64,000 bases of DNA from Cyanophora paradoxa CCMP329 (taxonomy: Eukaryota; Plantae; Glaucophyta): assembly GCA_004431415.1 (NCBI GenBank), contig QPMI01000651.1, forward strand, positions 1-64,000, written 5' to 3'. Of this stretch, positions 16,493-64,000 are shown one piece after another. Position 1 is the stretch's first letter. Each line of letters opens with the position of its first letter. A program made the translations under genes and the position numbers. Below the pieces are notes generated by a model. That model was not told the DNA's origin and did no database searches. It saw nothing but the letters and a program-made list of their open reading frames with translations.

Positions 16493-16580
16493 TGTCACAA
16501 CACAACGATTTTCGATACGTTTTTATATTGTCCGATTAAGAATCGAAACAGTCATCGACCCACAGGGGGGAGTCTGTGGT

Positions 16581-28171: not shown

Positions 28172-28326
28172 ACACATAGGGATACCCCTGATCCAAGCCC
28201 TCCGGCCTTCGGCCTACAGGCTTGGATCAGGGGTATCCCTATGTGTGCGCGTTTCAGGTACTAGGGTAGTAAGCATTTATTTCAGGTCTTAGGGTATTAT
28301 TCATGTCTTTTTGGCACCAGTAGGGG
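28172..28326. repeat. Left TIR of element 2 with terminal hairpin
   Basis: Perfect 28-bp stem 28172-28199 / 28219-28246. 28181-28326 matches the reverse complement of 56661-56806 with about 14 mismatches. Confidence 0.93.
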
Positions 28327-43059: not shown

Positions 43060-44430
43060 ATGGATATTACGTCGACCCTCCAGCGCCTTTCGTTGAAAGA
43101 AGCCCTAACAACCCCAGAGGAGGCCAAGGCCTTCTTTCTGGATAACTCCCTAATGCTTGGTCTTGAATCCAAGTCGAAGCCCGTTCTTGTTGTTGTGAAC
43201 CCGAGCAATACTTTTGAAAATAGTGTTGGAAATCGCATTTCATTCAAACTCCCTCGCTACAATTTCTGTGGCAAACTCGAACTTGCCTTCGACCTTCCAG
43301 CTATCACTTTTGGTGATGCTGATCTTGTTCGGAATGGGTACACTCGCCCAGTTGGTGCTTTGGTTCAGCGACTTGAAATTACCTATGGGTCATACACCTA
43401 CCATATCCCTTCTGATTTCCTTGCTCATTTCCCTCTTGTCTATTATAGTGAGGATCAGCTTGCCAAAAAGAAGCGATCAATGGGCATGCTTCACGGCATC
43501 CCCGCCCATGGAACCAACCGACTTGGTGGCTCATTCTTTGTTGAAATTCCTGTGCCTTGGCTAAACCACTACCTACCTCTTGGTGCTCTGTCTGGTGAAA
43601 TGGTAGTAACTGTTTGGTTCAAGGATGTAGGGAAGGGTTATGTTGAGACTTCTTATGGTGGTCGTACTCTTCCTAAGGCTGGGGACACAGCCATTGATGG
43701 GGACAAGGATGATGGGCTTGGCGTCGCACCTGCTGAATCTGTGCTGGCACATGTTGGCCAAAACATCACCACTTTCAATCTTGGTGCGCCAAACGTTGAA
43801 ATTAAAATTACTTCTCCTCGCCTTTATATGTATGCTGTTAATGTGTCTGATGAGCTTTTCGCTACTGTTATTGAGAAGGTAAAGACAACTGGCATGGCTA
43901 TCCCTGCTCTGGATATTGGATTTGTGGATGTCAGTGATTTGAAAGCCAAGGGTCTTGCCCAACCCAATCGAGTTAACCTCTCCCAAATATCAGGTCTCGT
44001 TTATGCTCTGCTTGTTTCAGTTCGTGATAACGCTAATGTTGACAAAGCTAATGGTTCCCACAGTGTACTTAAGACCTACTCCAACTCCAAAGATATTACT
44101 TTCACTGTGGAAATTAATGGTCAACGTCTCTATGCCACTGAGCCCATTCCACTGCTCAAGGGTGCTGAGCTGATTGCTGATGTCTTCAAATGCTCTAATA
44201 TGGATAAGGTTGCTGATCGCTATGTTCTTTCAGGGCTTCCGTTCTGTCTTGATGGTGAGAAGGCAATTCGCAATGTTGCCCAGTCTGGCTATGTTGACCT
44301 GACCAATTCTTCATCTTCATTCCTCACTCTCTACATGCCCACTGACAAGGTTATTGATGTCAATGTTCGCGCTCTCATGCACAGCTTTATCATAGTGGAC
44401 AAGGACGGCTTAAGGCGAATCAATCTATAA
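43060..44430 (+). CDS. Major capsid protein (double jelly roll, PLV type)
   Basis: 456 aa, close orthologue of 21655-23022. Confidence 0.85.
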   Translation: MDITSTLQRLSLKEALTTPEEAKAFFLDNSLMLGLESKSKPVLVVVNPSNTFENSVGNRISFKLPRYNFCGKLELAFDLPAITFGDADLVRNGYTRPVGALVQRLEITYGSYTYHIPSDFLAHFPLVYYSEDQLAKKKRSMGMLHGIPAHGTNRLGGSFFVEIPVPWLNHYLPLGALSGEMVVTVWFKDVGKGYVETSYGGRTLPKAGDTAIDGDKDDGLGVAPAESVLAHVGQNITTFNLGAPNVEIKITSPRLYMYAVNVSDELFATVIEKVKTTGMAIPALDIGFVDVSDLKAKGLAQPNRVNLSQISGLVYALLVSVRDNANVDKANGSHSVLKTYSNSKDITFTVEINGQRLYATEPIPLLKGAELIADVFKCSNMDKVADRYVLSGLPFCLDGEKAIRNVAQSGYVDLTNSSSSFLTLYMPTDKVIDVNVRALMHSFIIVDKDGLRRINL

Positions 44431-44483: not shown

Positions 44484-45266
44484 ATGGGCGACTTGGACGA
44501 ATTTAATGCTGGTGAGATGATAAATCCCCCTTTCCGCGTTTTGGCAATTGGCAAATCTGCTACTGGTAAATCAGAGGCTGTCAAGTACTGGCTCAAACAG
44601 CTTCATGATGCCAAAAAGATTGATGTCGTTTTGGTGGTGAGTGGAACAAGCTTTAATCATTTCTGGGATAAAGTGGCCACATTACAATTGGGGAAATGGG
44701 ACGCCCCCTACATTGCTAAATTGCTGGATGAAAGGCAAGAGAAAATAGAAAAGGGGGAACCTGTAAACCAATTATGTGTTGTTTTGGACGACCTTATTGA
44801 CAACGAAATAGTAGATTTAACCCGAGATAAAATAATCGGAAGTCTTTACAGTCGTGGTAGACATTCGAAAATATCTATTATCTGTATCACACAAAAGCTG
44901 AGGAAAGTCTCATCAACAATTCGTGTCAACTCAGATTATGCTATGTTCCTAAGCGCTGCCAATAGAAAGGAGCTTGAAGCCATTGAGGAAGAATATAATA
45001 TAATGCGGGACAAAGATGTTTTCTATAAAATGTTTGAAGAGTACGTTCATTCCTATCAGTTTCTAATTTGGTCATCCGCCGATTATTCTGTGAAATATTT
45101 CGTAGATAAAGCGGATTTGGTCAAAGATTTCCCATTTCCACGGTTCCACAGGAAGCCAAAGAAGAAAGAAGATGAGCTTAAACCACCAGAGAAAGAAGAG
45201 GGGCGCAAAGAAGTGAAAAGCCAAGTTCATAGTAATAAGTTAATGCGATATAAACGCGGTCTATAA
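44484..45266 (+). CDS. A32/FtsK-HerA genome-packaging ATPase
   Basis: GKSATGKS, VVLDD, SRGRH. The last ~20 codons may be out of frame (homologous stop near 45243). Confidence 0.95.
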   Translation: MGDLDEFNAGEMINPPFRVLAIGKSATGKSEAVKYWLKQLHDAKKIDVVLVVSGTSFNHFWDKVATLQLGKWDAPYIAKLLDERQEKIEKGEPVNQLCVVLDDLIDNEIVDLTRDKIIGSLYSRGRHSKISIICITQKLRKVSSTIRVNSDYAMFLSAANRKELEAIEEEYNIMRDKDVFYKMFEEYVHSYQFLIWSSADYSVKYFVDKADLVKDFPFPRFHRKPKKKEDELKPPEKEEGRKEVKSQVHSNKLMRYKRGL

Positions 45267-46822: not shown

Positions 46823-47018
46823 AATAATCTACTTTTAGGTAGCATAAAAATGCGAAAGGGGCGGCTCTGCGTAGAGCTTGATGAGAGCTTCACAGGAAAA
46901 AAAAGAGCGCTCAAAACGGCCAATCTGGTGCCGAGATATTCGCGTTTGAAGTTCCTTAAGTGGCTCTAATTGAAAGTTTTAGAAACATTCTTATAGAGCT
47001 CTATAAGGAAATAGCTGC

Positions 47019-47195
47019 GCAATCTCAGCGTTGCGCGGCCATACAAGGAGCAATCTCAGGCTTGCGCAGCCACACACTGAGCAATCTCCGGCTTGCGCGG
47101 CCATACAAGGAGCAATCTCAGCGTTGCGCGGCCATACAAGGAGCAATCTCAGGCTTGCGCAGCCACACACTGAGCAATCTCAGGCTTGCGCAGCC
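47019..47195. repeat. 31-bp tandem array A (~5.7 units, GCAATCTCAGGCTTGCGC...)
   Basis: Unit starts at 47019, 47050, 47081, 47112, 47143, 47174. Confidence 0.9.
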
Positions 47196-47202
47196 CGCGT
47201 GT

Positions 47203-47357
47203 ATATGTATATGATATATATGAAAAAAAAAACAAGTTTTGGTAAAAACTACAGCGCCGTGATCGCCATGACGCGGCGAGTCCGGAAAGCTATGATATAT
47301 ATATATGTCATGCGACATTATGATATATCATATACATATATCATTATGGTATATACA
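47203..47357. repeat. 155-bp direct repeat (partner 47698-47852)
   Basis: Near-identical block following each 31-bp array. Confidence 0.92.
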
Positions 47358-47446
47358 AGTCGCTCAAATTGAAGTCTTATAAGGTCTTATAAGAGTTGTC
47401 TTATAGAATTCTTTTCTAAAATCTTATATGGTCTTATAAGATTTAA

Positions 47447-47687
47447 TGTGCGTACCGTAGCGCAGTACGCAAGCCACTTTGCGTACCGTAGCGCCGTACG
47501 CAGCCCACTGTGCGTACCGTAGCGCAGTACGCAGGCCACTGTGCGTACCGTGGCTCAGTACGCAAGCCACTGTGCGTACCGTAGCGCAGTACGCAAGCCA
47601 CTGTGCGTACCGTAGCGCAGTACGCAGGCCCCTGTGCGTACCGTAGCGCAGTACGCAGGCCCCTGTGCGTACCGTGGCTCAGTACGC
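47447..47687. repeat. 31-bp tandem array B (~7.8 units, each with TGCGTAC-N9-GTACGCA inverted repeat)
   Basis: Directly visible; no unique spacers. Confidence 0.92.
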
Positions 47688-47697
47688 GCGAACGTAC

Positions 47698-47852
47698 ATA
47701 TGTATATGATATATATGAAAAAAAAAACAAGTTTTGGTAAAAACTATAGCGCCGTGATCGCCATGACGCGGCGAGTCCGGAAAGCTATGTTATATATATA
47801 TGTCATGTGACATCATAATATATCATATACATATATCATTATGGTATATACA
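47698..47852. repeat. Second copy of the 155-bp direct repeat
   Basis: Matches 47203-47357. Confidence 0.92.
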
Positions 47853-48270: not shown

Positions 48271-48319
48271 ATCTACTGCTCACTATATAATAGGGGGATG
48301 TTCTTAAGTAGGGGGAGGA

Positions 48320-48455
48320 AAGGCAGGTAAGGCAGAAAAACCGCCTTATTTGAAAACTTTTTCCATTGGCCATTTTACGTTTTTCAAAAACGCAAAATCT
48401 CCATCCAGATATTTTTTTTCAAATAAGGCGCCTTACCTGCCTTACCTGCCTTACC
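48320..48455. repeat. Inverted iteron-like array based on GGCAGGTAA with a 15-bp inner inverted repeat
   Basis: AAGGCAGGTAAGGCAG...CGCCTTATTTGAAAA // TTTTCAAATAAGGCG CCTTACCTGCCTTACCTGCCTTACC. Confidence 0.8.
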
Positions 48456-48500
48456 TTCTTCCAATAACTATACCAATTAATCATCCCCTCCCTCCAGAAA

Positions 48501-48682
48501 TAGAGGGTAGAGGGTAGAGGGTAGAGGGTAGAGGGTAGAGGGTCTGGGTAGACAGGGTAGAGGGTTGTTTGTAAACTTTCCTAGAAAAACCCCCTTTCAT
48601 GGGGAATTTTACAAACAACCCTCTACCCTGTCTACCCAGACCCTCTACCCTCTACCCTCTACCCTCTACCCTCTACCCTCTA
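48501..48682. repeat. Perfect 75-bp inverted repeat of (GGGTAGA)n iterons around a 32-bp spacer; candidate replication origin
   Basis: Arms 48501-48575 and 48608-48682; ends 15 bp from the primase-helicase stop. Confidence 0.9.
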
Positions 48683-48697
48683 CCCACCCTCATATGA

Positions 48698-51175
48698 TTA
48701 TTCACTATCACTTTCAATTCCACATTTTGACTTCAAGCCCACATAGTAAATGGAATTCACACCATTCCTTTTCACCTGTTTCTTAGGAATTCCATTAATC
48801 ACAGTCATAGCTGTTCCAAAGGCTGTTTGGCTCATTTCTTTATCCACTCTGGAATACTCTTTGAATAGATCAGCTGCCTTGATGACGTCACTGCTGCTGT
48901 GGGTGATTTCAAAGTTTGCCTGAAGCCATGTCAGCACTGGGTTGTTTTCAGTGATATATTCCTTGCTGGCCTCTTTGACAGATTCAGGCACTGGGATGAA
49001 GCCCATGGCGCTCACCTCAGTGGTGTATGTGTCAATGAGCAGCCTCATGAAAGCCTGAGCATATCTCTCATCATCTCTAATTCTGCCCATCAGGCTGGGG
49101 TCTGCCTTCTTTTGGCCTTGAATGGGATTCTCCTTGAACTGGTATTCAAAATGGGACACATGGAGGCGCCTTTGAATACCTCCATCTAACTTGGAGAGCT
49201 TTGGTATATCATTTGTCAGCAGGAAGGGGATGAATTGAGGGCTGAATGTAATGGGGTTAGCATGTAGTAAACGAGCAACAAGTTTCTCACCTCCAGTGAT
49301 CTCTTTGATTTTGCCCACCTGAAGCTTGTCACTGGCCTCAGGCTCATTGGAGAAGATGATCCTCACACCCTTCTTATCAGCCAGCTCAGGCACAGGGGCC
49401 CCAGACCTTGGTTTCCCACTGACCCAATAAGAGCTGTCAAGGGGCTGGGCATAATCACCCAGAGCCTTCAGAACCAACTCTTGGAGTGTAGATTTGCCAT
49501 TGGAGCCAGTGCCTGTCCAGATGTGGAAGCGCTGGTCTTTGTTGCCCTTCCCAGAGAGGGCACCTGCCAATGTCCTCACAAGGAATTTGCCAGTCTCTTG
49601 ATCTTTGAATGGCTCATACACGATTTTCTTGATTTCTTCCATGACATTCCCATCAATCATAGGGGCATATGGATAGCCACAAGTCCTACTGACATACTCA
49701 TCAGCTTTGGCTGGGCGAAAGACCTTATTTTGAAGGTCATAGACTCCATTGGTAAACCCAATCAGCTCCTTAGATTCATCCATACTGGCAGCTATTTCAG
49801 TGTCAGCAAAGTGAGCCTTGGCCTCTTTGATGATGGAATCTTTGAATCCACATTTCAGGAGCTGTTTGGAAATTTCAAGGCATTTCTTGGCATTCTCCTC
49901 ATACTTTGAGCTTTCATCTGGATCAGCAGCAGCTGAACGAGTGTTTTCCATTGCCTCCTTCAGAAAAAGCTTCATGACATCAGTGGAAAGCACTTTGCGC
50001 AGTGTATGGGGTTCCTTTTCAGCTCTCCACAGTCCAGTGAGCTTATTCCTGACAAACCAGATGTCTTTTTGATTGGCATCATAGCGGAATTGGTCTTTTT
50101 GTGTGTGGTACAGGACTTCAGCCACATTGTAATGACCCCCATTTGAAGCAATGGCATTTTTAATGGCCTGCTTGAGGTCTCCCTTATTGGTAAACAGCTG
50201 AATATATAGATCCAGATTATCAGCTTTGAGCCAATAGACAAGAGAAGCATATGCCAATGGCTTTACTGAGCTACCTTTTTGGAAGCTCTGCCAAGCCTTG
50301 TCACACGCCTCAGCCCTATACTTGCTGCTCTGTTGGCTGAATTTGTGCCAGATGGCCAGTACTTTGTCCTCAGGCATTTTCTTGTCTTTCATAGTGCTTG
50401 TCAGGGCCAAGCCAACATTAATCCAGTCAGCATAGCCATCAGCTCGTTTTTCACTGAGTCCCATCACAAGCTTTTCTAGCTCTTCAGTGGTGATGATTTC
50501 GCTGGAATAATCATTATTTTTGGGCAGCTGCTGGGCAGGCTCCTCCTTCTCTGGAAGAGTGAGCAGGGCCTCCTTGCCAGTGAGAAGCTGGACAAAGAAA
50601 TCAGTGTCCTCATGGGATGTTAGCTTGGTGAACACAGTGTTCCAGCATGGTTCCTCATAGGTGCTGCTCTTGTCAGCAAGAGCCTTCTCTTTACAGCACC
50701 CAAGGCACACAAGCGCCCTGTTGTTGTTGTAAACAGATGGATCATAGTCCTCATGAGGCTTGAGCCCAGCCCTCTCAAGGAAAACAGGGAAATCCCTGTA
50801 GATGCCATGAAGGGTGGTACATACCATGTGGGCACTCACTTTGTAGCATGGATCCTGTGTGTCTTTTTTTATCAGCAGCCTTGATCTGGTGGAGATGGCA
50901 ATGGTGCTGATGTGGACACCAAGTGCCTTGGCCAGCTTTTCAGCCTTGGAGTTAATTAGCCCAAGTCCCTCATCATCAACCTCATCAACAGGCAGAACCT
51001 GTTCGAAATCAATGTAGAGCTTGGTGAATTTATGGCCACTCAAGTACTCAGCCATGTGCTTGTTGCCTGAGGCAATCAATTTGAGTGCCTCAGTGACCCT
51101 GATGGTCACAGTGCTGGCTTCGCGACTGCCAATGATGCTTGTTAGGAAGGTGCCAATGATGCTGGTGGATGCCAT
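48698..51175 (-). CDS. AEP-type (NCLDV-like) primase, PriCT-2 and D5-like SF3 helicase
   Basis: KLYIDFE, KVSAH, DPSVYNNNR; PriCT-2 ADGYADWINVGLAL...WHKFSQQSSKY...W.SF; IGFTNGVYDL; Walker A GTGSNGKS; DGGIQRR. Confidence 0.92.
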   Translation of the reverse strand: MASTSIIGTFLTSIIGSREASTVTIRVTEALKLIASGNKHMAEYLSGHKFTKLYIDFEQVLPVDEVDDEGLGLINSKAEKLAKALGVHISTIAISTRSRLLIKKDTQDPCYKVSAHMVCTTLHGIYRDFPVFLERAGLKPHEDYDPSVYNNNRALVCLGCCKEKALADKSSTYEEPCWNTVFTKLTSHEDTDFFVQLLTGKEALLTLPEKEEPAQQLPKNNDYSSEIITTEELEKLVMGLSEKRADGYADWINVGLALTSTMKDKKMPEDKVLAIWHKFSQQSSKYRAEACDKAWQSFQKGSSVKPLAYASLVYWLKADNLDLYIQLFTNKGDLKQAIKNAIASNGGHYNVAEVLYHTQKDQFRYDANQKDIWFVRNKLTGLWRAEKEPHTLRKVLSTDVMKLFLKEAMENTRSAAADPDESSKYEENAKKCLEISKQLLKCGFKDSIIKEAKAHFADTEIAASMDESKELIGFTNGVYDLQNKVFRPAKADEYVSRTCGYPYAPMIDGNVMEEIKKIVYEPFKDQETGKFLVRTLAGALSGKGNKDQRFHIWTGTGSNGKSTLQELVLKALGDYAQPLDSSYWVSGKPRSGAPVPELADKKGVRIIFSNEPEASDKLQVGKIKEITGGEKLVARLLHANPITFSPQFIPFLLTNDIPKLSKLDGGIQRRLHVSHFEYQFKENPIQGQKKADPSLMGRIRDDERYAQAFMRLLIDTYTTEVSAMGFIPVPESVKEASKEYITENNPVLTWLQANFEITHSSSDVIKAADLFKEYSRVDKEMSQTAFGTAMTVINGIPKKQVKRNGVNSIYYVGLKSKCGIESDSE

Positions 51176-51481: not shown

Positions 51482-51629
51482 TGCTTGATGTGTTCCCCTT
51501 ATAGTATAGTTGAGATTTCTTTTTAAATAGGGATCGCGGGGTTTATTCTCATTGAGCACTGCGAATTGTCCACAATATAAACATTTAAAGATTATTTTCG
51601 TACCTAGATATAAGTACAACCCCCCAACC

Positions 51630-54600
51630 ATGCCCCGCCCCAGCCACTACCAAATTAAGGAGCTCCAGGACAAGATTCTCGGGAATCTGGCCTTCCTCCT
51701 TGCGAACCACTCCATCAGTGAAAGCGAATATGAATCATACATAAGCCAAACCAACAAGAAGCTCAAGGGGCTTCAAGCTCTCAATCGAGAGCTATTAGGG
51801 AAAATCGAGACCCTTGATGAGACTGATCGCCTTGGCCAAATCCAAGTCGAACAAACTACCACAACTCAAGTCAGAGGAGATGAATACACTACCTTAATAA
51901 ATGAGCATCGCGCTCTGAATAATAAATACATCGATTTCACAATCAGAGCTCAGCACCAGATCCTGACCACTCAAGAGTTTATAGACACCTACTCTGAGGA
52001 ACTCCACACAAGGCTCCAAGATGCCATCAATTCACAAATGTCGATTAAAACTCGCTTTACATTTGTCTGTCGCTTTTCTAAGGCCAATAATTCGAGAGAT
52101 TTTATTACCAAGCACATTTACAGCACCTATGCTATCATGACAAGATCTCGAATCCTCACAAAAGAGACAGCTAAACTTGCCAAGGAATGCCAGTCGCAAA
52201 TTAATGTCACAGATAGCTACAGATTAGATAGCATCCAAGCCCTCAGGGTCATTGTTCTCTCCTTTAAGCCAATCTCAGGAGGAGCATTTATTCCATTGCC
52301 TGAGTGGCTGAAGAATAAACGCGCCATTGTCAATGTTAATAACAAGGACAATAGGTGCTTTGAATACTCCATCCTGAGCTATATTCACAAGGACGAAGTA
52401 AATAGCCACAAGCGCAATGAGACTTCCCAATACAGGAGGTGGTTCAAAAAAGAACTAAATTTCGAGGGCATTGAGTTTCCTGTGAAGGCGGATGCTGATA
52501 CTATTGATCTCTTTGAAAATCTCAATCCAGCAATCTCTGTTAATATTTACGACCCCTCTAACTCTACAGAAGAAATTAATCTACTCCACAACAGCTCCTC
52601 AAGGAACAGGAAACACCAAGTGGATCTGCTGCTAATTACAGACGAAAATGGTAACAGTCATTATACCACAATATTCAGCATGTCCAGAGTCTTAGCTAAA
52701 AATGATAAGCAGCGACTCCATTTCTGTAAAACCTGTTCCAACCACTTCAAGACTGAGGAGAAGCTTCAATCCCACATTCAAAGCAAACGTTGTGTGGATT
52801 GGAAGACAAGTGCTGGAGAGACCCCAAAACAACCCACATTCATTGAATTTGGTCTTAAACATCTCTCAAAGACTGTATTCCTCCCCGTGATTGCCTATTG
52901 CTATTTCGATTATGAAACAGATATTTCTGGTATGTTCAAGATCAAATCAATCTCACTGACAGCTCTTCATAATAATAGAGTAGTACTCACTAAAACCCAC
53001 TCCAACATCTTTGAGCTCCTGAGTACCCTCGACAGCACAGCCCCAGAGCTATTCAAAGCCCTATTTACCAACATCCCAATGTCACTGACCAAAGAGCAGA
53101 AACGTACCCATTACCTTGCTAAAACCTGCTACATCTGTGAGGGTACGTTTTCCCAAGACAACTATAAAGTGAGGGATCATGACCATCAAACAGGCGATTT
53201 TGTAGGCTCAGCCTGTCGCAAATGTAATCTCCACAGACGCACCAGCAATCTCACCAAGATTCCCATAGTGACCAATGATCTGTCCCTATCTGGAACGCAG
53301 ATATTCAAGGCAGTCGCCTTAAATCCCGAAAAAAGGGTGGAAGTCCTCGCAAAATCGTTTGACAACTACATGTCGATCACTTGGGGTTGCTTTAAATTCA
53401 TTGACATCAAAAACTTTATTGATTATGGCGTCCAGAACGTGGAAGGATTAATGGAAAAGTTCCAGCTTTTCCGCCAGAAATCACACAAAACTTTTGGGAT
53501 GGATGCTGCCCACTATGTCTCAAGTCCAGGGCTTTCGTGGGACAGCATGCTATCTATTACCAAGCCTAAAATCGAGCTTCTTTCCAACCTTGATATGTAC
53601 AACATGGTTGAAGGCATGATCAGGGGAGGCCTTTCGATTATGAATCATAAATATGCCAAAAAGGAAAGGGACAGCCACATTATATATTTGGATGCCAATA
53701 ACCTATATGGATATGCCCTATCCCAAAAGCTACCCCTCTCGAATTTCCAATGGCACCCAGAACCCTCAAATTACGACCTGTCATCAGCAGAGGGGGCCAT
53801 CTTAGAAGTTGACATCCATTATCCCCAGCACCTCCATCAACTCCACAAAGAACTGCCTCTTGTTATCAAGAGAGCAGAGGATGGACTACAAGCAGCCTGC
53901 GAAGACATTTGTAATTATGTGGTGTCGAAACCTTTGCTCCAATTCATGGTAGCGCAAGGCTTAAAGGTCACCAAAATCCACAGGGTGCTAACATTTACTC
54001 AGGCTGCCTTTATGAAGCCTTACGTCGAATCCAATGCCCAAAACCGCAAAGCAGCCCCTTCCAAACCCGAAAAGGACTTCTTTAAGATCATGAACAATAG
54101 CCTTTTTGGCAAAACCATTGAGAAAGTGAGAGGAAGGTCTAATGTCAAGATTGCCACCAACGAAAAGCAATTTATGAAATACGCCAGATCGCCCCTACTC
54201 AAAGCAGAAACAAGACTAAGCGATTCAGCAGTAGCCTTCGAAATGCTACAGAAAAATGTCAAGTTAGATAAGCCCATAGCAATTGGGGCAGTTGTTTTAG
54301 ATCTTGCCAAGCTGCGGCTATTTGATTATTATTATAACACCATCAAGCGGAAATGGCCAGACTGTAAACTGCTTTTTACTGATACAGATTCGCTTTGCCT
54401 TCAAATAAATTCGAAAACTATAGCAAAAGACCTACAAGACATTGACACCCACCCCACAGAGCTTGGCAAGTTCAAAGATGAGTTTGAGGGCAGAACCATT
54501 ATTGAATATGCTGGGGTAAGGCCGAAATGCTACAGCATTAAAACAGATGATGAGGAAATAAAAAAGCTGGCAGGTGTTTGTAAGGAGACCATTCAAACAG

Positions 54601-54725
54601 ATCTGTCTTTCCAAGATTATAAAGACCATGTGCTCCACCAAAAACCCAAGCAAATCGAAATGACTGTCCAAAAGAAGCTTGAAAATGAGACCTTCAATGT
54701 GAAGATGTCAAAGATTGCTTTCTAA
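51630..54725 (+). CDS. Protein-primed family B DNA polymerase with degenerate exonuclease
   Basis: MPRP start; DANNLYG, KIMNNSLFGK, TDTDS, GKFKDE; DNRCFEY...SHY; zinc insert CYIC...RDHDH...CRKCNL. Confidence 0.95.
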   Translation: MPRPSHYQIKELQDKILGNLAFLLANHSISESEYESYISQTNKKLKGLQALNRELLGKIETLDETDRLGQIQVEQTTTTQVRGDEYTTLINEHRALNNKYIDFTIRAQHQILTTQEFIDTYSEELHTRLQDAINSQMSIKTRFTFVCRFSKANNSRDFITKHIYSTYAIMTRSRILTKETAKLAKECQSQINVTDSYRLDSIQALRVIVLSFKPISGGAFIPLPEWLKNKRAIVNVNNKDNRCFEYSILSYIHKDEVNSHKRNETSQYRRWFKKELNFEGIEFPVKADADTIDLFENLNPAISVNIYDPSNSTEEINLLHNSSSRNRKHQVDLLLITDENGNSHYTTIFSMSRVLAKNDKQRLHFCKTCSNHFKTEEKLQSHIQSKRCVDWKTSAGETPKQPTFIEFGLKHLSKTVFLPVIAYCYFDYETDISGMFKIKSISLTALHNNRVVLTKTHSNIFELLSTLDSTAPELFKALFTNIPMSLTKEQKRTHYLAKTCYICEGTFSQDNYKVRDHDHQTGDFVGSACRKCNLHRRTSNLTKIPIVTNDLSLSGTQIFKAVALNPEKRVEVLAKSFDNYMSITWGCFKFIDIKNFIDYGVQNVEGLMEKFQLFRQKSHKTFGMDAAHYVSSPGLSWDSMLSITKPKIELLSNLDMYNMVEGMIRGGLSIMNHKYAKKERDSHIIYLDANNLYGYALSQKLPLSNFQWHPEPSNYDLSSAEGAILEVDIHYPQHLHQLHKELPLVIKRAEDGLQAACEDICNYVVSKPLLQFMVAQGLKVTKIHRVLTFTQAAFMKPYVESNAQNRKAAPSKPEKDFFKIMNNSLFGKTIEKVRGRSNVKIATNEKQFMKYARSPLLKAETRLSDSAVAFEMLQKNVKLDKPIAIGAVVLDLAKLRLFDYYYNTIKRKWPDCKLLFTDTDSLCLQINSKTIAKDLQDIDTHPTELGKFKDEFEGRTIIEYAGVRPKCYSIKTDDEEIKKLAGVCKETIQTDLSFQDYKDHVLHQKPKQIEMTVQKKLENETFNVKMSKIAF

Positions 54726-54736
54726 TCCCAATATAG

Positions 54737-56105
54737 ATGTCATCAAAGATCACACGCAGACAAACAGAGTACGATGTGAGTATATTGCCAATCCCAATCC
54801 CTCAAGAGGAGAGAGGGGGTCGCATTCAGAAAAAGAGTGACCTCAAAGCTTTAGTTCCTGTGGATATCCCAACTGCCATTGCTGTGCCCCACTTGGATCC
54901 CTTAGCAAGGACATTCTATGACACCAAGGTAGGATTTAAAGGCCTTGCTTCATTGGCCAAAGAGCTTCCAGATGTGCCAAGAAAGACAATCCGTAGATTC
55001 TATGACGCCCAAGAAATCAACCAAATAAATAAACCCCTCCCATCTGCCAAGAAGACTGCCTATATCCCAATAAGACAGCCACTCGACTGCTATGCCATAG
55101 ACCTAATCTTTTATCCCTCATATAGCAAACAGAATCAAGGCTATAACACATTCCTCACAGCTGTAGAAAATACCACAAGGCTCGGCTTTATTATTCCAAT
55201 GAGGGGAAAGACAGCAGAAAGCACATTGAACGCATTTAAGGAGCTTGAGCAACAAGTTCCACGTCCAATAATCAAGATACAAAGTGATGCTGGGAGCGAA
55301 TTCCTGAACAAGGTATTTAAAGACCATTTAGAAACCCAGATGATTGAGCACCAAGTTTCGCAGGTTGGAGATCACAATAGCCAAGGCCGAATAGAGGCCT
55401 TTAATCGCACAATAAAGAAGCTAATTAACTCGTATTGTATAGCGAATAATACTGTAAACTTTTTCGACAAGCTCCAAGATTTTGCCTACAACTACAATAA
55501 TACCATCCACTCAGCAACGGGGATGAAACCAGCAGAGACCACAGAGGTACATGTTCCCCTCATACTCGCAAAAGAAAACGAGAAATTCATGAAGTCAATT
55601 GAATATCTAAAGGACTATCCAACGGGAACCCACGTGAGAACTAAAATAGAGAAGGGTCCATTCGCCAAGCAGGGCAATAATTGGAGCCGCGAAATATTTA
55701 CAATAGAAGGAGTGGAGGGGTTCAAGTTTAGATTGAGGGACATTGCCGGAAAAATGATTGATCGACTTTATGCCCACTACGAATTACAGAAAGTGGAAGC
55801 CGTGGAGTTTCTGGAAGCCCCATCAATAAATGTCATTGAAGAGGCAAAGAAAGAGGCCAGAACAGAGCGACTGTTGGCCAGAGAGGGATTGAGAGGGCTC
55901 CAAATGTGCCGGATAAACCTTTATTGGAGGACAGAGCAGGGAAGAAGAAGAAACAAGGGAGAGAGTTGGAAAGATTGAGGGTGGCAGGGACAGAGAGATT
56001 AGCAGGGGAGCAGAGGCAGTAAGGTGGTATAGAGATTTCTCAAATTCAAAGGAGACCTATGAAGCTCCAGCAATTTCCACGAGATCAAGGAGGAGGGCAG
56101 GATGA
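54737..56105 (+). CDS. Polinton-type rve integrase (two apparent 1-nt losses in the C-terminal tail)
   Basis: YAIDLIF, IQSDAGSEF, GRIEAFNR. Restoring G runs near 55886 and 56006 gives ...RWYRDFSNSKETYEAP..., matching element 1. Confidence 0.92.
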
Positions 56106-56152
56106 CACATCTGTTCCACATTATTGTTTTTTCTTAGCTATTGGTATTCAAA

Positions 56153-56553
56153 ATGCTTGCCAAAGGTTACCATGTGATGCTTGATTTCCAATTCAGCCAA
56201 CCAATTAGCGACCATGTGGGGCTCTCTAAATGGCTCATGACTGTCAGTGAAGACATCATCAAGAAATATGGAATACAGGTTGTCCACAAACATGCTGAGA
56301 TTTTTGATGGCACCAAATCACCCCTGGATTTGCCCAAGTATTATTATTAGATGAAAGCCATTGCTCTGCTCATTGCTACAGTGATCAAGGCATGTTAGCA
56401 ATAGATATATTCAGCTGTGGAAAACAGGCAGAAAGGAATACAAGTTTAATTGCTTTTGAGCTGGAGGAGGAGATAAACAAATATGCTGTTGGATTTGGGG
56501 CAGTGATCAAAAAGAGATTACACCATGAGAAGAGGAGGTTTGAACATGGATGA
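56153..56553 (+). CDS. speD: S-adenosylmethionine decarboxylase-like proenzyme (~133 aa, one apparent frameshift)
   Basis: MLAKGYHVMLDF...VVHKHAEIF; adding one C to the run at 56321-56324 continues PGFAQVLLLDESHCSAHCYSDQGMLAIDIFSCG, i.e. the ESH autocleavage and DIFxCG motifs. Confidence 0.85.
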
Positions 56554-56658
56554 GAGAGGGTAGAGAGGGTAGAGAGGGTAGAGGGTTATATGTAAAAATT
56601 CCCGCGAGAAGAGATTTCCCTTAGAAAGTTTACAAACAACCCTCTACCATGTCTACCC
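56554..56658. repeat. Diverged, inverted second copy of the GGGTAGA iteron array
   Basis: GGGTAGAGGGTTATATGTAAAA...AAAGTTTACAAACAACCCTCTACC resembles the reverse complement of the core of 48501-48682. Confidence 0.85.
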
Positions 56659-56660
56659 AC

Positions 56661-56806
56661 TCCCTGCTGGTACCCAAAAGACGTAATTAATACCCTAAGA
56701 CCTAAAAGAAATGCTTACTACCTTAGTGCCTAAAACGCGCACACATAGGGATACCCCTGTTCCAAGCCTGTAGGCCGAAGGCCGGAGGGCTTGGAACAGG
56801 GGTATC
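56661..56806. repeat. Right TIR of element 2 with terminal hairpin (outer 9 bp missing)
   Basis: Stem 56750-56768 / 56788-56806, loop containing GGCC-GAA-GGCC. Confidence 0.92.
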
Positions 56807-57199: not shown

Positions 57200-60100
57200 G
57201 GCGCAGACGAATTCCAGAACGCCGGCGCATCGCGACAGCTCGCCCCGGGGCAGCTCAGCAGTGCCGGCCTGAACGGAACCATTGTGAGTAACACCGCAGA
57301 CTCGACCGGCGTGACAGTTGTCCACCGCGCGTTCCATCCCGTGAACAACATTTCCGTGGAGCACACGTGCGGCGTTTTGAAGGCTTGCTCTTCTGCGTTG
57401 GACATGGTCAATTCATGCGGGCCTGAGCGCAGGTACTACTTTGCAACAGAGGACAGCGTGGCGCCGCAAAACTTGATGAGTGAGTTATCGCGCGGAGGCA
57501 CGAGATCTGTTCGACGTCTGACAGTCTTCAATTTTCCCCAACAGTCTATATCAACGTTGTCATTCGCAACGGCGACGGGTCGCCTGCGACGCAGCTGCCT
57601 TACTACGGTGCGCTGGTTTTATTTGTGCAGTCGCACAGCTGGAACTCTACTGAGCCGAGACACGCGCAGTGCGAGATATAGATCCTGGTGCTCCACCTTT
57701 TTCAATACGCGTTTCATCAAGAAATCTGAATGTTGATTCGCGATATCGTTGAAGACCAGGGGCAGTCGCGCACGGCTGCCGGCAGGTATTCGGCCCAGGA
57801 GGACCTCGGTAACTGGGCCACTGACACAATCGACTCCATAAAAACGGACTATTGGGGACCTGGCAAGCAGGTGTACGACGTATCCAGTTCCTTATATGCG
57901 ACGGTGGACTTTCTCGGCACGCGATCTGAGATTTTCATGATGTCCTAATTTATAAAAACCAAATTTGAATAATCTCTTACACACGTTTCAGAAACGAAGA
58001 ACGAGATTTTGGCTCAGCCAGCCGGCACCACCTACACCGGGGCTTCCGGCACCATTGCGAGCAACATCGCCTCGGGAATCGTGGCAGGTTATTATAAACA
58101 GCCCAGAAGAGAATCCGAATGCATTCCTGCTCAGAGCGATCACAGAACGCTGCGAAATCGGATATGTGGCCGAAGATGTGAGGGCGCGCGTCGGATATTC
58201 TTCTGCCACCTCAACCGGAACCCGGTTCGCCGCGGCCCGGTTCGCTTCAGCCGCTTGTTTTCGCTCAGCTGAAGAAGATTGCAATCAGAACGTTCGGCGA
58301 GAAGATTAGCGATCCGATCGCGAACCCCTACGTCGGGACAAACGTCGGCGCAATCTCCACTGCCGACAACATGATCGGGGTCCGCCCTCACATGCGAATC
58401 GAATCGCCTTGCGATCGCCCGACCCGCCGAGCAACTCGTTGACGCGGACCTGCAGGTCTGGTTCTCCTTCGGTCAGCGGAATGGCGGCTGGCTGGAGTCC
58501 GGCGACGCTGTTAGCATCGGGGTAAGGCAATCCCGTCCAGAAAAGATGCAGTATTATAGTTAGTGTCGTGGAAGCCAACTCGAACGTTTTCCTTCAGTTT
58601 GCCATGGGCTTCAGGAGGGCCGACATCCTCGGCTTCAAGGACCCGTACAGATTTGTCGCGCCTCCGGTCACGATGACCGGCCTCACCGGTGAGTCCCGAA
58701 ACGTTAACCGAGCACTAAACACTGCCATCTGCTCAAGCAAGCTTTTATTCGGTTGCTAACGCTAAAGAATCCATCAGCTGGCTGGACGAATCCCGCGACT
58801 GGGCTCACTCCCATTGGCTACAGTCTCACCATTTTTGAGGTTGGCAATGGGACATCCTTCGATTGATATTCTGCACGCGTGCGCGCAAACTAATTGATGC
58901 GATCGAACACAGATTTCTTCGACCGCCAACGCGCCGTCCGCCACGCGCGATCACGTGAAGCGCATCTGCACCGTGGATGGCGTCGCAAAGGGAGAGGCCG
59001 GCGCCGCGATGACGAACGACATGAGCTTGAGCTGCCCCGTCGAGGGATTCGTCTGCGGCAAGTGGTACCGCACGTACCTTCGGGCCTTCAACAAGTTCGG
59101 CGGCTTCCAGGAGAACTCGGTGGCGTTCCAGGCCGTGATTCCGTATTGCGCGGCTCCTCCGACTCCGACGCCGTCGCCGATTCCTCCAGCGACGGGGCCG
59201 ACGCCCGTTCCTCCTACGCCCGCGCCCCGCCCTCCCCCCGGCGCGGACGGGCTGCCGACCGTCCTCACCGCGATCATCGCTGGAGGCGACCGCAGCGTCG
59301 GCCGCGATGCATCCTTCGTCGTCGACGGCTCCCCGTAAGCATCCCTGCAGTCAAATGCTAGCGCTCGCAGCGTGTCTCACCGCTGGCGCTCGCGTTAGAT
59401 CGTACAACCCATCCTGCCCGAAGACCGCAACGTACGAGTACCAGTGGCGCCTCGTGCCGAAGGGAGAGCCCTTCGACGGCGCCTCGACCGTGCTCTTCGA
59501 GACCGCCTTCGGCGCCGACAAGAAGACGGTCCCGCTCGCCACCAGCACCGCGCCGGCCCCTGCTCCCGCCATCCGTGCGTCCCGCGGCAAACCGATCGAC
59601 TATGTAGCCGCTTGTTTGAGAGTTGTGTGCTTTCGTCGCACGCAGCCAACTTCGCGTTCGGCAAGTCGTACACGCTCTACCTGCGCGTGAACTCGACCTG
59701 CCCGGGGGCCGGCTGGGCCGAGGACACCACCTCCGTCACCATCAACGTCCTCGACAAGGTCCTCCCCGTCGTGAAGATCGACACGGAGACCTCCAGCCTC
59801 AAGGACCCCACCAAGCTCACCGACTCCAAGACGCTGACCATGCGCTGCCGCTCCCGTGTCGACCCCGATCCCAGTGCGCCATGACGATTTGGACCTTCGC
59901 CCCGCATGCGTACCCGCGGACGGCGGCTTCTGACCAGGTCGCAGGCTGGCCGAGCGTGGCGGTCATGTCGTGGGTCGCCCCGAACAAGGAGCCCGAGCTC
60001 GCGGAGATCCTCACCTACCTCAACGCGGGCGCCAACAAGGCGGAGAACTTCATGGTCTTCAGCCCCGAGAAGCGCCCCAAGCTCGTCTACGGTGAGCCTC

Positions 60101-63100
60101 TCGATCGCATACACGCGTCGATGCATGCTCGCTCATTGTCCTACTCGCAGATAAGCTGTACCTTCTTGTGAGCGAGATGTTCTAATATATATTAATTGAG
60201 ATCGTGCATCGTTTTTGTGCTCACGATCATCCGCGTTGCGCAGCGCTGCGTGGCCTCGTACCCGAACGCTCCGCAAGACGAGGTCGTGTTCGACGAGATT
60301 CGCGTCCGGTAACTCTTGGAACTCGTTGAAATCCGATTAAGCTGCTCGGTGACCTCGCTTCACAGCCTCATTGGTCCGCCCAAGCCCGGCAAGTGCTCCG
60401 TCACGCCCGCGAATGGCATCCTGCTTCAGGTGCACTCCAACTATATGTAGATACGGAGGGTGTTTCAGCTCTAAAACTCGCCTTTAGGATACCTTCACTG
60501 TTGTGGCTGAGGGCTGGACGGTCTCGGACAACGACACGCTTCCCCTTTCGTATACGCTCAAGGTCCGTGGCAGGGACGAGTATCTGCTTTGTGAATGCAT
60601 TGTGACTCCCCTGTGCAGCGCAACGGCCTGCCGGTGGCGCCCACGCAGTACAGCGGCTCGTTCGCGGAGCTCTCCTTCCCCGTCGGCCAGGTCCCCCTCG
60701 TCATCACCATCTGCGACAAGGAGCGCAGCTGCGCCGGTGCCTTCAGCGTTTGCCTTTACTGATCCTTCTATAGCTTTCATAGACTGAAGCCCGGCTCGTT
60801 TTGCCGCTCTCCGCAGACTGCCAGACGAGCGCGACCGTCGCCTCGCCGCCTGCCGGCTCCGCGTGCGACCTGTACAGGAAGCGGAAGGCGGACCTGGACG
60901 CCAAGCTCGCCGCCGGCGCCATCACCAAGAAGCAGTACGACCAGAGCATCCTGCAGGCCGTCTCGGCCGTCACAAGCCAGTTGCTCGAGGAGGACGCGGG
61001 TGCGCTGGTCCCGTCGTAGTGTGTTAACGTTCGGACACCCTGAAGAGCCCCGCAGCGAACCCGGGCAAGTCGGAGTGCGCGAAGGCCCTGACCGACTCGC
61101 TCTTGAAGGACACGTGCGCGGCGACGAAGGACATGAACGGCACCTCATACGCGGAGGCGGCTCCCGCCATCGGCACCATCCGCGCCTTCTCCCGCCTCGT
61201 TGCCAAGTGCGAAACTCTAATTTTAATTTGAGCTCGCGTTGTTATCCGCCTTTCTGATTTGTAGTCGCCACGTACAGATACCTGAAGTAATTGCACCGCC
61301 CTCGATCCAGCGATTTACGGGGGTTTGCTTACGTTGCCGTTGCGTGTTTCCGCAGCTACTCAGCGGAGCAGATCCTGTACGGATGCTACCCCGACTTTGA
61401 TCCCTGCTCGATCCCTCCGGACCGCTTCGCCGAGATGCTTGGCGGGGTGCGTCATGCATTCGAGTCGGGGTGCGCGGAGCGCGATCTCACCGCACTGGCC
61501 CGGGGCGGCGCCCGCACCCGCAGGCGGCGGCTACGATGTCGAGCGCCATCGCCTCCGACAGCTGGACGCCGAGCACGGCGACCGGCCTGGACGCCACAGC
61601 CGGCAAAGGAACCTCCTCTCCCCTGAAGGACGTCCTCAGCAACCTCATCAAGGCGCGATCCGGGTGCGTCGAGCGCATGTTTGTAATCAAGTGTTGAATA
61701 TTCATCATCACGATCGTCCGATCGCAAACCGCTCACTTGACTCAACACCCAGTTGCATGCCGTGCGGCGACGGTATGAAGAGGAACGCCGCTGACGAGGC
61801 TGCACTGGTGCGCATACGCAATAATAGAACAAACATCCGGCACAATTATATTCCTGACGCGCGTCCTTGGACGTTTTTAACATCAGACTGCTGGCAAGAG
61901 TGCGTCCACATGCACATTTGAGATTATTTGCATTCCCTCGCATTGCTGACACTGAGTGCGCCTTCCGCGGCGTACAGTCTGCTTCCCTGATCCCCCCGAC
62001 CGCGTGCGCTTGCCTTTCGGGACATTTATTTTCACCCGATCGCGATTTTGACAACGCGTGCGCAGGACGGCGTCTGGTTCGAAAATTCGCTCTTGCAATG
62101 CTGAAGAGCTCGAGCTCGCGATGTAACTGACCCGGTTTCCAGGTTCACGATTCCCACAAATGTCGCCGACAACGTCAACAGCGCGGTGGTACTCCTTCCT
62201 GACGAAATCAAGGCGAGCATTTCTAGAAGTATAGATGCGTAGAATTGAGCGTGCACATGTCATTTCTGACTGGTACGCGGGCAGAGATTCGTGCCGAAGG
62301 ACGGGAACGACGGCACGTATAAATATTGATCGAATTTTGACTCGTTACCGTCTGCACACTAATCGAACCTGAGCAGGTTTCGCCGTTTCGGTCCTCACGA
62401 TGAGCAAGCCTCCCTTCGCGCCGGTCTACAAGGGGCCCGCAGGTGCTGTCGTGGGCACCGCTCGCATTTCCGGCCTCTTCGTGGACATTACGGTCCTGGG
62501 CGTCCCAATTTCCGGCATCAACCCGGAGTTTCCCATCATCATTGAGGTGGGCGCACGGCTGGTTTTCAGTGGATCGCTGCAATTGTTCGGTTCCTGACGC
62601 GTGGAACGCATACAGATTCCCTACGCCCAGGGAGTCGAGAGGCCGACGAAGCAGCAGGTGCGGTTTCAATGTCGCCAGATGCAGGGTAACACAGTGGGCG
62701 CTCATTTTCGCACGGCTGATCGCGTCTGTTGTTATGTAGTACCTGCTCTTCTGGAACGGTGCGGTTGCATTTCGTCTTTCCTTCGCTCCGATGAGAGCTC
62801 TCTAATCGAATCACCGCAGTGACATCGGAGAGCTGGGAGCCGTGCGACCCCTACGGCACGGGTCTCAACATGGCGGTGAGCTTTGGGCGTCGTCTAAGTC
62901 GAAAGCTCGTTCACTGAAACATTTCACTGAAAGCTCGGCGATCCCAACGTCATCACGCGTGGCTCCGGCGACGTGCGTGCCCATTCAGCCTTCCGGAAGT
63001 ATAACGCTGAAAAAGTTTTCGCGATGCAGATCTTCTTCAAGGACGGCACCTACTACGCCCGCGGCCGCTGCACGCACCTTACGACGTTCACCGTCGGCGA

Positions 63101-64000
63101 GATCGAGCTGAACACCTTCAAGTCGAACGTGCCCGCTCTCGGCTCGGCGATCGGCAACGGCAACATCGCGCCGCCCGACCACGAGACCTCGAAGAGCAAC
63201 AACAGCCAGGTCCGCGTCCGCCGGCGCCCGCCCCTCTCGGACGCGCCCGTGTTCGAGCCCGGGCCCGGCGCCGCGCAGCTGGCGTTCATCCTCCCGCTCG
63301 CGTTCGGCATCGGCGGCGTGGCGCTGCTCCTCACCGGCCTCGCCGTCGCCAAGGCCAAGGGCGTCCTCCCGAGCTGGGGGCCCAAGTCCTCCTCGCCCTA
63401 CACCCCGTACTCCGGCCCCGAGCCCGGCGCCGGTGCCGGCGCTGGTGGCAACCCGTTCAACCCGCCGCGCAACGTGGGCGCGTTCCCGTCGCCGGACCAG
63501 CCGGGCGGCACCACCGTCACGTGGAGCAAACCAGAGACCGCCAGCTCGAACCCTCCCTCGCAGTACGAGGCGAGCGGCGCTTTTCACCCAAGCGCCGATC
63601 AAAGCTCTGCTGACACGCGCCGCAGATCTGGTCGTCCGACCCCAGCGGCCGCCCCGGCAGGAAGCTCGGCTCCGTCCCCGCGGACAGGCTCAGCTACACC
63701 CTCCCGGCGGCCCTCGCCGGCGTGCCCATCATCGTCCGCGCGGTCGACCCCGGCGGCCGCTTCGCTGACGCGCCGCCCGTCTCGCCCGACCCCGCCGGGG
63801 CGCCGGCCGCCCTGCTGCCGGGCCGTTCGACCCGCGCAACGTCCGCTCCATGCCCGCCAGCGAGCCCGCCCCGGCGAGCCCGCCCCGGCCCCGTCCTCAC
63901 GTGGAGCCCGCCCGAGGCCGCCAGCTCCGGCGCCGAGCCCGTCGCCCAGTACCAGGTCGGTGCCGCATGCGCGCAGCGGAGGCGCCCGGGGCCGAACTCG
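57200..64000 (+). CDS. Host multi-exon gene for a REJ/GPS-domain, membrane-anchored polycystin-like protein (boundaries approximate)
   Basis: Many short GT-AG introns. Exons read PPKPGKCSVTPANG|DTFTVVAEGWTVSDNDTLPLSY (REJ-like, ~60370-60560), FWN..W..C and CTHLTTF (GPS, ~62740-63090), and TM LAFILPLAFGIGGVALLLTGLAVA (~63280-63350), followed by a Pro-rich tail. Confidence 0.65.

What the first reader, a model, noticed from the sequence alone, without database searches (positions are those of the whole stretch)
56153..56553. Prokaryote-type pyruvoyl AdoMet decarboxylase in a Polinton-like virus
Seen: a ~133-aa protein with ESH and DIFSCG motifs, hidden by a 1-nt gap, and a homologue in element 1. 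No spermidine synthase is present in element 2. Known: this short class self-cleaves at E-S to form a pyruvoyl cofactor and feeds polyamine synthesis; some homologues decarboxylate arginine or ornithine instead. Inference: it may supply polyamines for DNA packaging, or drain SAM to blunt host methylation silencing or helper-virus capping. A metabolic gene is unexpected in a <30-kb element.
Basis: partly seen in the sequence, partly recalled or inferred. Interest (0 to 1): 0.75.

Follow-up and report, generated by a model that had tools for sequence, protein, structure and literature searches.

The report
Likely arginine decarboxylase in Polinton-like virus
A small virus integrated in a eukaryote's genome carries an intact gene for a bacterial-type, predicted self-activating decarboxylase that likely turns arginine into the polyamine precursor agmatine rather than acting on SAM; the gene family was already catalogued in such viruses, but under the SAM label.

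Summary
The gene is real. The one-base break at 56321-56324 is an assembly error: contigs of 5 of 5 public runs laid on it read through. The 133-aa product keeps the class 1b SpeD processing residues (Ser69, His74, Cys89). It is probably not a SAM decarboxylase. It groups apart from three assayed phage AdoMetDCs (98/100) and from ornithine-type SpeDC (100/100), with Poseidoniales genes that sit beside speY in 73 of 74 loci, the group in which PMC10407285 measured arginine decarboxylase (SpeDA). The assayed sequences themselves were not in my tree. The SAM-drain idea therefore loses its basis; agmatine/polyamine supply remains plausible and untested. The same clade occurs in six other small PLV-type contigs and in giant viruses, and one origin for the PLV genes is rejected (p-AU 0.00045). 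Novelty is limited: the supplement of PMC7805220 lists a 22-member SAM-decarboxylase cluster in virophages and PLVs, and metabolic genes are common in PLVs. New here: the arginine reading, repeated capture, and many intact endogenous copies. The scan's earlier notes hold SpeDA readings for cellular genomes, none for a PLV.

The parts
56153..56553 (+). Gene for a 133-aa class 1b SpeD-fold pyruvoyl decarboxylase, likely arginine-specific (SpeDA type); last gene before the right terminal repeat
56153..56320 (+). First 56 codons (most of the predicted beta chain); 63% identical to P0001
56321..56324 (+). Frame break in a homopolymer run; assembly error of the window, absent from contigs of 5 of 5 runs
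56356..56358 (+). Ser69 codon, equivalent of Thermotoga maritima S63, predicted pyruvoyl precursor (cleavage E68/S69)
   Evidence: residue roles from PMC10407285
56371..56373 (+). His74 codon, equivalent of T. maritima H68
56416..56418 (+). Cys89 codon, equivalent of T. maritima C83
1..135 (-). 5' end of the homologue in element 1, cut by the window edge, frame break at ~88-91
28181..28325 (.). Left terminal inverted repeat of element 2 (145 nt, 91% complementary to the right one); begins in a hairpin 28172-28246
56662..56806 (.). Right terminal inverted repeat of element 2; GC-rich host-like DNA follows
54737..55978 (+). rve-type integrase (Pfam rve E 1.3e-5, below cut-off); its true end probably lies near 56100, hidden by two more one-base breaks (55884, 56004)
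51630..54725 (+). Family B DNA polymerase (DANNLYG, K...NNSLFGK, FTDTDS motifs; motif names recalled) with an endonuclease VII insert
48698..51175 (-). D5-like primase-helicase
44484..45266 (+). A32-type packaging ATPase
43060..44430 (+). Probable major capsid protein (456 aa)
   Evidence: position; low-confidence all-beta model whose best matches are adintovirus and giant-virus capsids

Best explanation
The gene is an intact accessory gene of an integrated Polinton-like virus, encoding a small SpeD-fold enzyme that is predicted to cut itself at Glu68-Ser69 to make a pyruvoyl cofactor and likely decarboxylates L-arginine to agmatine, not SAM. Shown: open frame, family, fold of the nearest relative, the three processing residues, clade, and absence of partner enzymes in the element. 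Inferred: self-cleavage (from conserved residues), arginine as substrate (from clade and the gene context of cellular relatives), origin by capture from a giant virus (weak), and purpose. The most likely purpose is to raise agmatine during virus replication, which host enzymes would carry on to putrescine and spermidine, or which would itself serve as a counter-ion for viral DNA; a 133-aa enzyme that needs no PLP is the cheapest way for a 28-kb genome to do that.
For: Open frame in contigs of 5 of 5 runs. Ser/His/Cys at the exact spacing of T. maritima AdoMetDC. AlphaFold model of P0001 (63-64% identical to both halves): pLDDT 97; the top 5 Foldseek rows are T. maritima and Aquifex class 1b enzymes. 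Genome scan: 436 related stretches; the best 80 were kept and nearly all are titled Poseidoniales, Thalassarchaeum, Euryarchaeota, Methanobacteriota or Thermoplasmatota MAGs (one is titled Yoonia). Of the 74 of these 80 loci with 1200 nt or more downstream, 73 have a speY/DHS homologue and 22 an agmatinase-family gene within 1.5 kb. 5 of 5 such genomes have exactly one PF02675 match and 0 of 5 a spermidine synthase (incomplete MAGs). PMC10407285 assayed this group's speB/speY-linked gene (DAC51064, AIF02979) and Gimesia, Nannochloropsis and Tribonema relatives: arginine only. PMC13625781 finds the SpeY route dependent on agmatine. Trees: typical SpeD with the assayed S-PM2, phiYS40 and P2559S enzymes split off at 98/100, SpeDC-motif proteins at 100/100 (quick tree of 123 rows agrees). 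0 of 4 SpeDC-diagnostic positions match. 0 of 9 searchable viral records with this clade's gene hold a spermidine synthase. A deeper, diverged copy in X12 and X16 differs at 5 listed codons near the active site, 3 of them silent.
Against: No assay. The assayed SpeDA sequences could not be fetched, so the link runs through taxon and gene order (searches found none of the accessions). Inside the clade the window protein is joined firmly only to P0001 (100/99); its tie to the Poseidoniales branch is an unresolved fork, and PMC10407285 says SpeDA is little diverged from AdoMetDC. The proline that the paper uses to tell them apart is shown only in a figure I could not see; the window lacks the Pro at +8 that 59 of 60 typical SpeD carry, but so does the assayed AdoMetDC of phiYS40, and it would keep the Pro at -12 as 165 of 165 Poseidoniales/metagenome loci do: inconclusive. 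No enzyme that uses agmatine is in the element or in 9 searchable viral records (agmatinase 0 of 9, agmatine deiminase 0 of 9), and the host genome was not available, so the downstream step is unsupported.
Confidence: 0.65

Rival explanations
1. It is a true SAM decarboxylase that feeds host spermidine synthase, or lowers SAM.
For: Best family hits are all named AdoMetDC. Eukaryotic viruses do encode assayed class 1b AdoMetDCs (Heterosigma akashiwo virus 01, Yellowstone Lake phycodnavirus 2; PMC9992855), and many phages carry speD without speE. A eukaryotic host would have spermidine synthase (general knowledge). The proline test is inconclusive.
Against: Long, well-supported branch to all three assayed AdoMetDCs in the tree. 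TIGR03330 cut-off not reached (P0001 45.1 of 75.65), though one clade member, P0021, passes at 76.7, so the model does not sort substrates. Cellular relatives pair with speY, not speE. No methylase was seen in the element that could use decarboxylated SAM.
Confidence: 0.13
2. It makes agmatine, but the point is competition: arginine is drawn away from, or agmatine interferes with, a co-infecting giant virus or a host response, which would benefit an endogenous, many-copy element.
For: No downstream enzyme in the element or in 9 viral records. The gene is kept intact in many integrated copies. PLVs are reported to cut giant-virus yield (abstract starts of PMC12220804 and PMC12945077).
Against: Giant viruses carry the same clade themselves, which fits a pro-replication role better. 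Assayed SpeDA enzymes of this group are slow (kcat/Km 20-180 per M per s), poor for a drain.
Confidence: 0.08
3. It is an ornithine decarboxylase, or acts on another amino acid.
For: Substrate has shifted several times in this fold (PMC10407285). A virophage-like contig (L309) and virophage V523K carry ornithine-type genes.
Against: 0 of 4 diagnostic positions (Gln, Thr, Phe, Tyr; positions inferred from Fig. S5 text) and 100/100 separation from SpeDC-motif proteins.
Confidence: 0.08
4. It is a decayed or silent passenger gene.
For: Both copies in the window are frame-broken. Some relatives have changed the residue before the serine (P0002/P0151, L006, L015).
Against: The break is absent in 5 of 5 runs, and diverged copies change mostly silent sites near the active site.
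Confidence: 0.06

Closest known systems
SpeDA pyruvoyl arginine decarboxylases of Poseidoniales/marine group II archaea, Gimesia maris, Solirubrobacter, Nannochloropsis and Tribonema (Li et al. 2023, PMC10407285)
   Same: Same fold, length and processing residues; same motif type (SPPGF..LLDESH..AHCYSD.G.LAID.F.CG) as Poseidoniales genes beside speY/speB; no spermidine synthase partner.
   Different: Viral, alone, with no speY or speB; about 38-56% identity between P0001 and the archaeal genes; activity not measured; assayed sequences not compared directly.
Class 1b AdoMetDC (SpeD/SpeH): T. maritima (PDB 1TLU, 1VR7), Aquifex (2III), phages S-PM2, phiYS40, P2559S, Heterosigma akashiwo virus 01 (PMC9992855)
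   Same: Fold, ESH processing site, His and Cys; carried by viruses as a small PLP-free enzyme.
   Different: About 20% identity by structure; HCYSD instead of HTWPE; separate branch; below the TIGR03330 cut-off.
Protein cluster PC_0120 of virophages and GKS2 PLVs, and V523K orf16 (Bellas and Sommaruga 2021, supplement of PMC7805220)
   Same: SpeD-family gene in small eukaryotic dsDNA viruses; 22 members, among them 7 of 19 and 2 of 7 in two GKS2 clusters and 8 in three virophage clusters.
   Different: Annotated there as SAM decarboxylase (one column says DNA methyltransferase), not discussed in the main text; from metagenomes, not integrated; the one sequence I saw (V523K orf16) has an ornithine-type motif.
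Chlorovirus PBCV-1 arginine decarboxylase pathway and pelagiphage HTVC201P pyruvoyl ADC (PMC9992855)
   Same: Viruses that make agmatine from arginine.
   Different: PBCV-1 uses a PLP enzyme and encodes the downstream steps; HTVC201P's enzyme is closer to SpeDC and infects a bacterium.

Membership tests
Class 1b SpeD-fold pyruvoyl decarboxylases (PF02675) | Pfam score above the curated cut-off | tested here: met
   35.6 bits on the C-part alone, cut-off 25
Class 1b SpeD-fold pyruvoyl decarboxylases (PF02675) | Ser, His (+5) and Cys (+20) of the processing site | tested here: met
   ungapped match to T. maritima S63/H68/C83
Class 1b SpeD-fold pyruvoyl decarboxylases (PF02675) | Class 1b fold | tested here: met
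   model of the nearest intact relative P0001, pLDDT 97, best matches 1VR7, 1TLU, 1TMI, 2III; the window protein itself was not folded
Class 1b SpeD-fold pyruvoyl decarboxylases (PF02675) | Self-cleavage and pyruvoyl formation | not testable with these tools
   needs protein
Bona fide AdoMetDC (SpeD/SpeH) | Groups with assayed AdoMetDCs | tested here: not met
   11 typical rows incl. S-PM2, phiYS40, P2559S split off at 98/100; two of these rows have long branches
Bona fide AdoMetDC (SpeD/SpeH) | TIGR03330 equivalog cut-off (75.65) | tested here: not met
   C-part 37.8, P0001 45.1; 1 of 8 full-length clade members passes
Bona fide AdoMetDC (SpeD/SpeH) | Conserved 'gamma' proline of PMC10407285 Fig. 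8 | tested here: inconclusive
   figure not visible; +8 Pro absent here but also in assayed phiYS40; -12 Pro is at the break and present in P0001
Bona fide AdoMetDC (SpeD/SpeH) | Spermidine synthase partner in the same genome or cluster | tested here: not met
   none in the window's elements, 0 of 9 viral records, 0 of 5 archaeal MAGs; host genome not held
Bona fide AdoMetDC (SpeD/SpeH) | Restores spermidine in E. coli delta-speD | not testable with these tools
   needs the bench
SpeDA (arginine decarboxylase), Poseidoniales/Gimesia/stramenopile clade | Same clade as Poseidoniales SpeD homologues | tested here: met
   87-row clade, SH-aLRT 95; same side of the 98/100 split; assayed accessions not in the tree
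SpeDA (arginine decarboxylase), Poseidoniales/Gimesia/stramenopile clade | Cellular members linked to speY and often speB | tested here: met
   73 of 74 and 22 of 74 loci; not true of the viral gene itself
SpeDA (arginine decarboxylase), Poseidoniales/Gimesia/stramenopile clade | Arginine to agmatine activity | not testable with these tools
   needs the bench
SpeDC (ornithine decarboxylase) | Diagnostic Gln, Thr, Phe, Tyr | tested here: not met
   window has Leu, Glu, Cys, Ala at the inferred positions
Polinton-like virus / Maverick-type element | 15-30 kb with terminal inverted repeats | tested here: met
   28181-56806, 145-nt repeats; range from PMC10120064
Polinton-like virus / Maverick-type element | A32 ATPase, PolB or primase-helicase, integrase | tested here: met
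   integrase hit is below the Pfam cut-off
Polinton-like virus / Maverick-type element | Double jelly-roll major capsid protein | tested here: inconclusive
   model pLDDT 39 from 3 sequences; best Foldseek rows are adintovirus and NCLDV capsids, TM only ~0.2; no Pfam or PHROG hit
Polinton-like virus / Maverick-type element | Target-site duplication | tested here: inconclusive
   none seen by eye in the flanks printed; exact ends uncertain

The most novel reading that the evidence does not exclude
The smallest eukaryotic dsDNA viruses have captured, several times and from giant viruses, pyruvoyl enzymes of the first polyamine step, arginine-type in PLVs (at least three lineages here) and ornithine-type in virophages, all mislabelled SAM decarboxylase. 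In this host the gene rides in about 15 near-identical and further diverged integrated copies, so the proviruses would add an agmatine pathway to the cell and make amine supply a contested resource between host, PLV and giant virus.
Probability: 0.3. Interest if true: 0.65.

Novelty: new member of a known kind. Interest (0 to 1): 0.42.

Why it matters
It would be the first arginine decarboxylase of the SpeD fold assigned to a Polinton-like virus that I could find, and it corrects a label that would send experiments towards SAM and methylation. The protein is 133 aa and the assays exist (PMC10407285), so the substrate is cheap to settle. Repeated capture of one enzyme by 15-30 kb viruses points to polyamine precursor supply as a real limit on their replication or on their interplay with giant viruses. 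The case also shows that broken-looking genes in long endogenous viruses can be assembly errors, as PMC10120064 warns.

Tried and rejected
No whole genome is held for the window, so host ADC, ODC, agmatinase and AdoMetDC genes were not checked. Direct scan of viral contigs with the C-part found no relative; alignment-based scans did. Expression: no RNA holder listed; no evidence either way. Look-ups for the assayed SpeDA accessions in 30 protein clusters found none. P0003, third-best hit, is a repetitive tick protein and was dropped as chance. The careful 123-row tree did not finish; the quick tree is cited, and a 63-row careful tree was built from a hand-picked subset. In that tree P0032 is drawn next to the SpeDC branch with weak support (59/84), a likely long-branch effect. 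PLV identity of L002, L009-L012 and L018 rests on size, A32 ATPase, primase-helicase, recombinase and a ~450-aa capsid-sized gene; L012 shows no ATPase or capsid in the part held. Whether true AdoMetDCs also occur in PLVs was not tested. Paper searches: SAM decarboxylase + Polinton 0 papers; adenosylmethionine decarboxylase + virophage 2; Polinton-like viruses + decarboxylase 4 listed, the one read names phosphatidylserine decarboxylase; virophage + agmatine 1; SpeDA + arginine decarboxylase + agmatine 2; one search was swamped by unrelated papers. Supplements are not covered by these searches, and one supplement did hold the gene; that of the SPOT preprint was not seen and may list it too.

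Full report
Setting. The window holds two related AT-rich elements (GC 35-47%) followed by GC-rich, host-like DNA from about 57000. Element 2 runs from 28181 to 56806 between 145-nt inverted repeats and encodes an rve integrase, a family B polymerase, a D5 primase-helicase, an A32 ATPase, a patatin and long fibre-like proteins. The 456-aa gene beside the ATPase is the probable capsid: its model is poor (pLDDT 39) but its best fold matches are adintovirus and giant-virus capsids. This fits an endogenous Polinton-like virus as described in PMC10120064 (passages).

Observation. The gene at 56153-56553 is in two frames, 56 and 76 codons. The second part passes Pfam AdoMet_dc and aligns without gaps to the processing site of T. 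maritima AdoMetDC. The break is an assembly error: 20 of 24 listed runs hold about 70% of the words of 51600-56800, and the contigs of all 5 runs that I laid are one base longer at the break, at full depth. Other breaks of the element (patatin, a minor-capsid-like gene, the integrase end) are removed in the same way, mostly beside G or C runs. The homologue in element 1 is real but only its first 45 codons lie in the window.

Copies. The contig over the gene has 14.7, 15.3, 15.3 and 16.7 times the depth of an identical 636-nt contig at 47895-48530 in X1, X2, X12 and X9. If that contig is single-copy, which I did not test, about 15 near-identical copies carry the gene; the tool warns that depth is no copy number. 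Deeper contigs (4348 against 650 in X12) match only the active-site region and then diverge; of 5 codons with listed differences 3 are silent. So the gene is a regular, constrained part of this element family.

Which enzyme. A search of 1.84 billion representatives gave 220 hits at E 0.001 or better; the best, P0001, is 133 aa and 63-64% identical to both halves, from an 800-nt contig without context. The hits share SPPGF..LLDESH..AHCYSD.G.LAID.F.CG. A profile of 22 of them found 436 stretches in prokaryote genomes; the best 80 are nearly all marine group II archaea. There the gene lies beside or is fused to speY (73 of 74 loci with enough downstream DNA) and often speB (22 of 74), is the only SpeD match in 5 of 5 genomes and has no spermidine synthase in 0 of 5 hits. 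PMC10407285 (abstract, all Results, first part of the Discussion and supplement text read; figures not seen) assayed genes of this arrangement from a Poseidoniales genome and a marine group II/III clone, with Gimesia, Solirubrobacter, Nannochloropsis and Tribonema relatives in one clade: all were active on arginine and not on ornithine or lysine, and those tested did not restore spermidine. PMC13625781 (passages) reports that SpeY works on agmatine. In my trees the window protein, read with X at the break, lies on the same side as these archaeal genes, apart from typical SpeD including three phage enzymes shown to be AdoMetDCs in PMC9992855 (parts 1, 2, 3 and 5 of 7 read) and apart from SpeDC-motif proteins. 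Against this reading: the assayed SpeDA sequences were not obtained, the inner forks of the clade are open, and the proline test is inconclusive because the assayed phiYS40 enzyme also lacks the +8 proline. I put arginine at about 0.7, SAM at 0.13.

Spread among viruses. The first viral scan gave 18 loci. Six are 4-20 kb contigs of PLV type (L002, L009, L010, L011, L018; L012 less sure), eight look like giant viruses or are GVMAG bins, four look like phages (labels are my reading). A second scan added 7 contigs, 6 of them GVMAG bins. The closest relative with context is on a giant-virus-like contig, L099 (RNase III, Erv1, D5), but the link is weak (SH-aLRT 80, open). The other PLV genes nest among giant-virus genes in two places, and holding all PLV genes with P0001 in one clade is rejected (p-AU 0.00045; group labelled before the trees were built). 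None of 9 searchable viral records holds spermidine synthase, arginase/agmatinase, agmatine deiminase, a homospermidine-synthase-like domain or a PLP decarboxylase (9 other records, among them all six PLV contigs, were not held). A scan with ornithine-type sequences gave 45 loci; 2 have an A32-type ATPase nearby, one giant-virus-like (L304) and one 29-kb virophage-like contig (L309) with all four diagnostic residues.

How it most likely works. The proenzyme would cut itself at E68/S69, the serine becoming a pyruvoyl group, and convert arginine to agmatine and CO2. With no partner in the element, agmatine would be passed to host enzymes for putrescine and spermidine, needed for translation and replication, or would neutralise DNA directly. 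The first step is inferred from residues, the second from clade, the third only by analogy with PBCV-1 and pelagiphage HTVC201P in PMC9992855.

Prior art. The main texts of PMC7805220, PMC10120064 and PMC12220804 do not contain 'decarboxylase' (term searches), nor do three supplementary files of PMC10120064. The supplement of PMC7805220 does (rows seen): virophage V523K and cluster PC_0120, 22 members across virophage and GKS2 PLV clusters, annotated as SAM decarboxylase. A 2026 preprint (10.64898/2026.05.28.728513; passages and section 8; supplements not seen) counts 289 PLVs with carbohydrate transferases and 51 with ribonucleotide reductase and names no polyamine gene. So a metabolic gene, and this family, in a PLV is not new; I found no paper that reads it as arginine decarboxylase. 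The scan's own notes hold no PLV case; e1-347807 and e1-9866647 reach SpeDA readings for cellular genes, e1-347807 gave me the term diagmatine, and e1-3305857 suggested a methylase partner, which I did not find here.

Verdict. Real, intact gene; family right, substrate probably wrong; a new member of a known kind with a testable correction. Interest 0.42.

Noticed in passing
window 38962, 40201, 40754, 41397, 55884, 56004: Further one-base omissions of the assembly split the patatin, a minor-capsid-like gene, the gene at 38851-39432 and the integrase end; public contigs read through them, so element 2 looks intact rather than decayed.
   Followed up: partly
window 8520-10046 (+) and 39487-41040 (+): Patatin phospholipase fused to an F5/8 type C (discoidin) domain in both elements.
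   Followed up: no
window 28172-28246 and 56741-56806: The terminal repeats begin with a long hairpin; the right copy lacks the outermost 9 bases and no target-site duplication was seen.
   Followed up: partly
window 31077-37208 (-), 33073-34020: 2043-aa fibre-like protein with a 36-nt tandem array (HTHTK..ITDF-like units); element 1 has a shorter relative, and its 524-aa gene (2669-4243) ends in a phage-type peptidase S74 chaperone domain.
   Followed up: no
window 48316-48685, 56545-56665, 16578-16722, 25511-25939, 10750-10930, 46988-47718: Nested inverted and tandem repeats between the divergent replication genes and near the ends of both elements; candidates for origins or promoters.
   Followed up: no
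window 48698-51175 and 16800-19163: The two elements share the helicase part (33% identity) but have different N-terminal primase domains (PriCT-2 in element 2, Prim-Pol in element 1), while capsid and ATPase are 86-91% identical: module exchange.
   Followed up: no
L046:3998-5290, L049:3992-5284 and others: In one marine group II lineage the SpeDA-type gene is fused to the speY/DHS gene, downstream of an agmatinase-family gene.
   Followed up: partly
L309:3948-4325: A 29-kb virophage-like contig carries an ornithine-type (SpeDC) gene with all four diagnostic residues.
   Followed up: partly
L012:12574-13176, L002:9502-10092, L018:645-1010: Other accessory genes in small PLV-type contigs: deoxynucleoside kinase, LicD family, SET domain.
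   Followed up: no
window ~58560-63700 (+): GC-rich host-like gene broken by many short AT-richer stretches that look like introns; not annotated.
   Followed up: no
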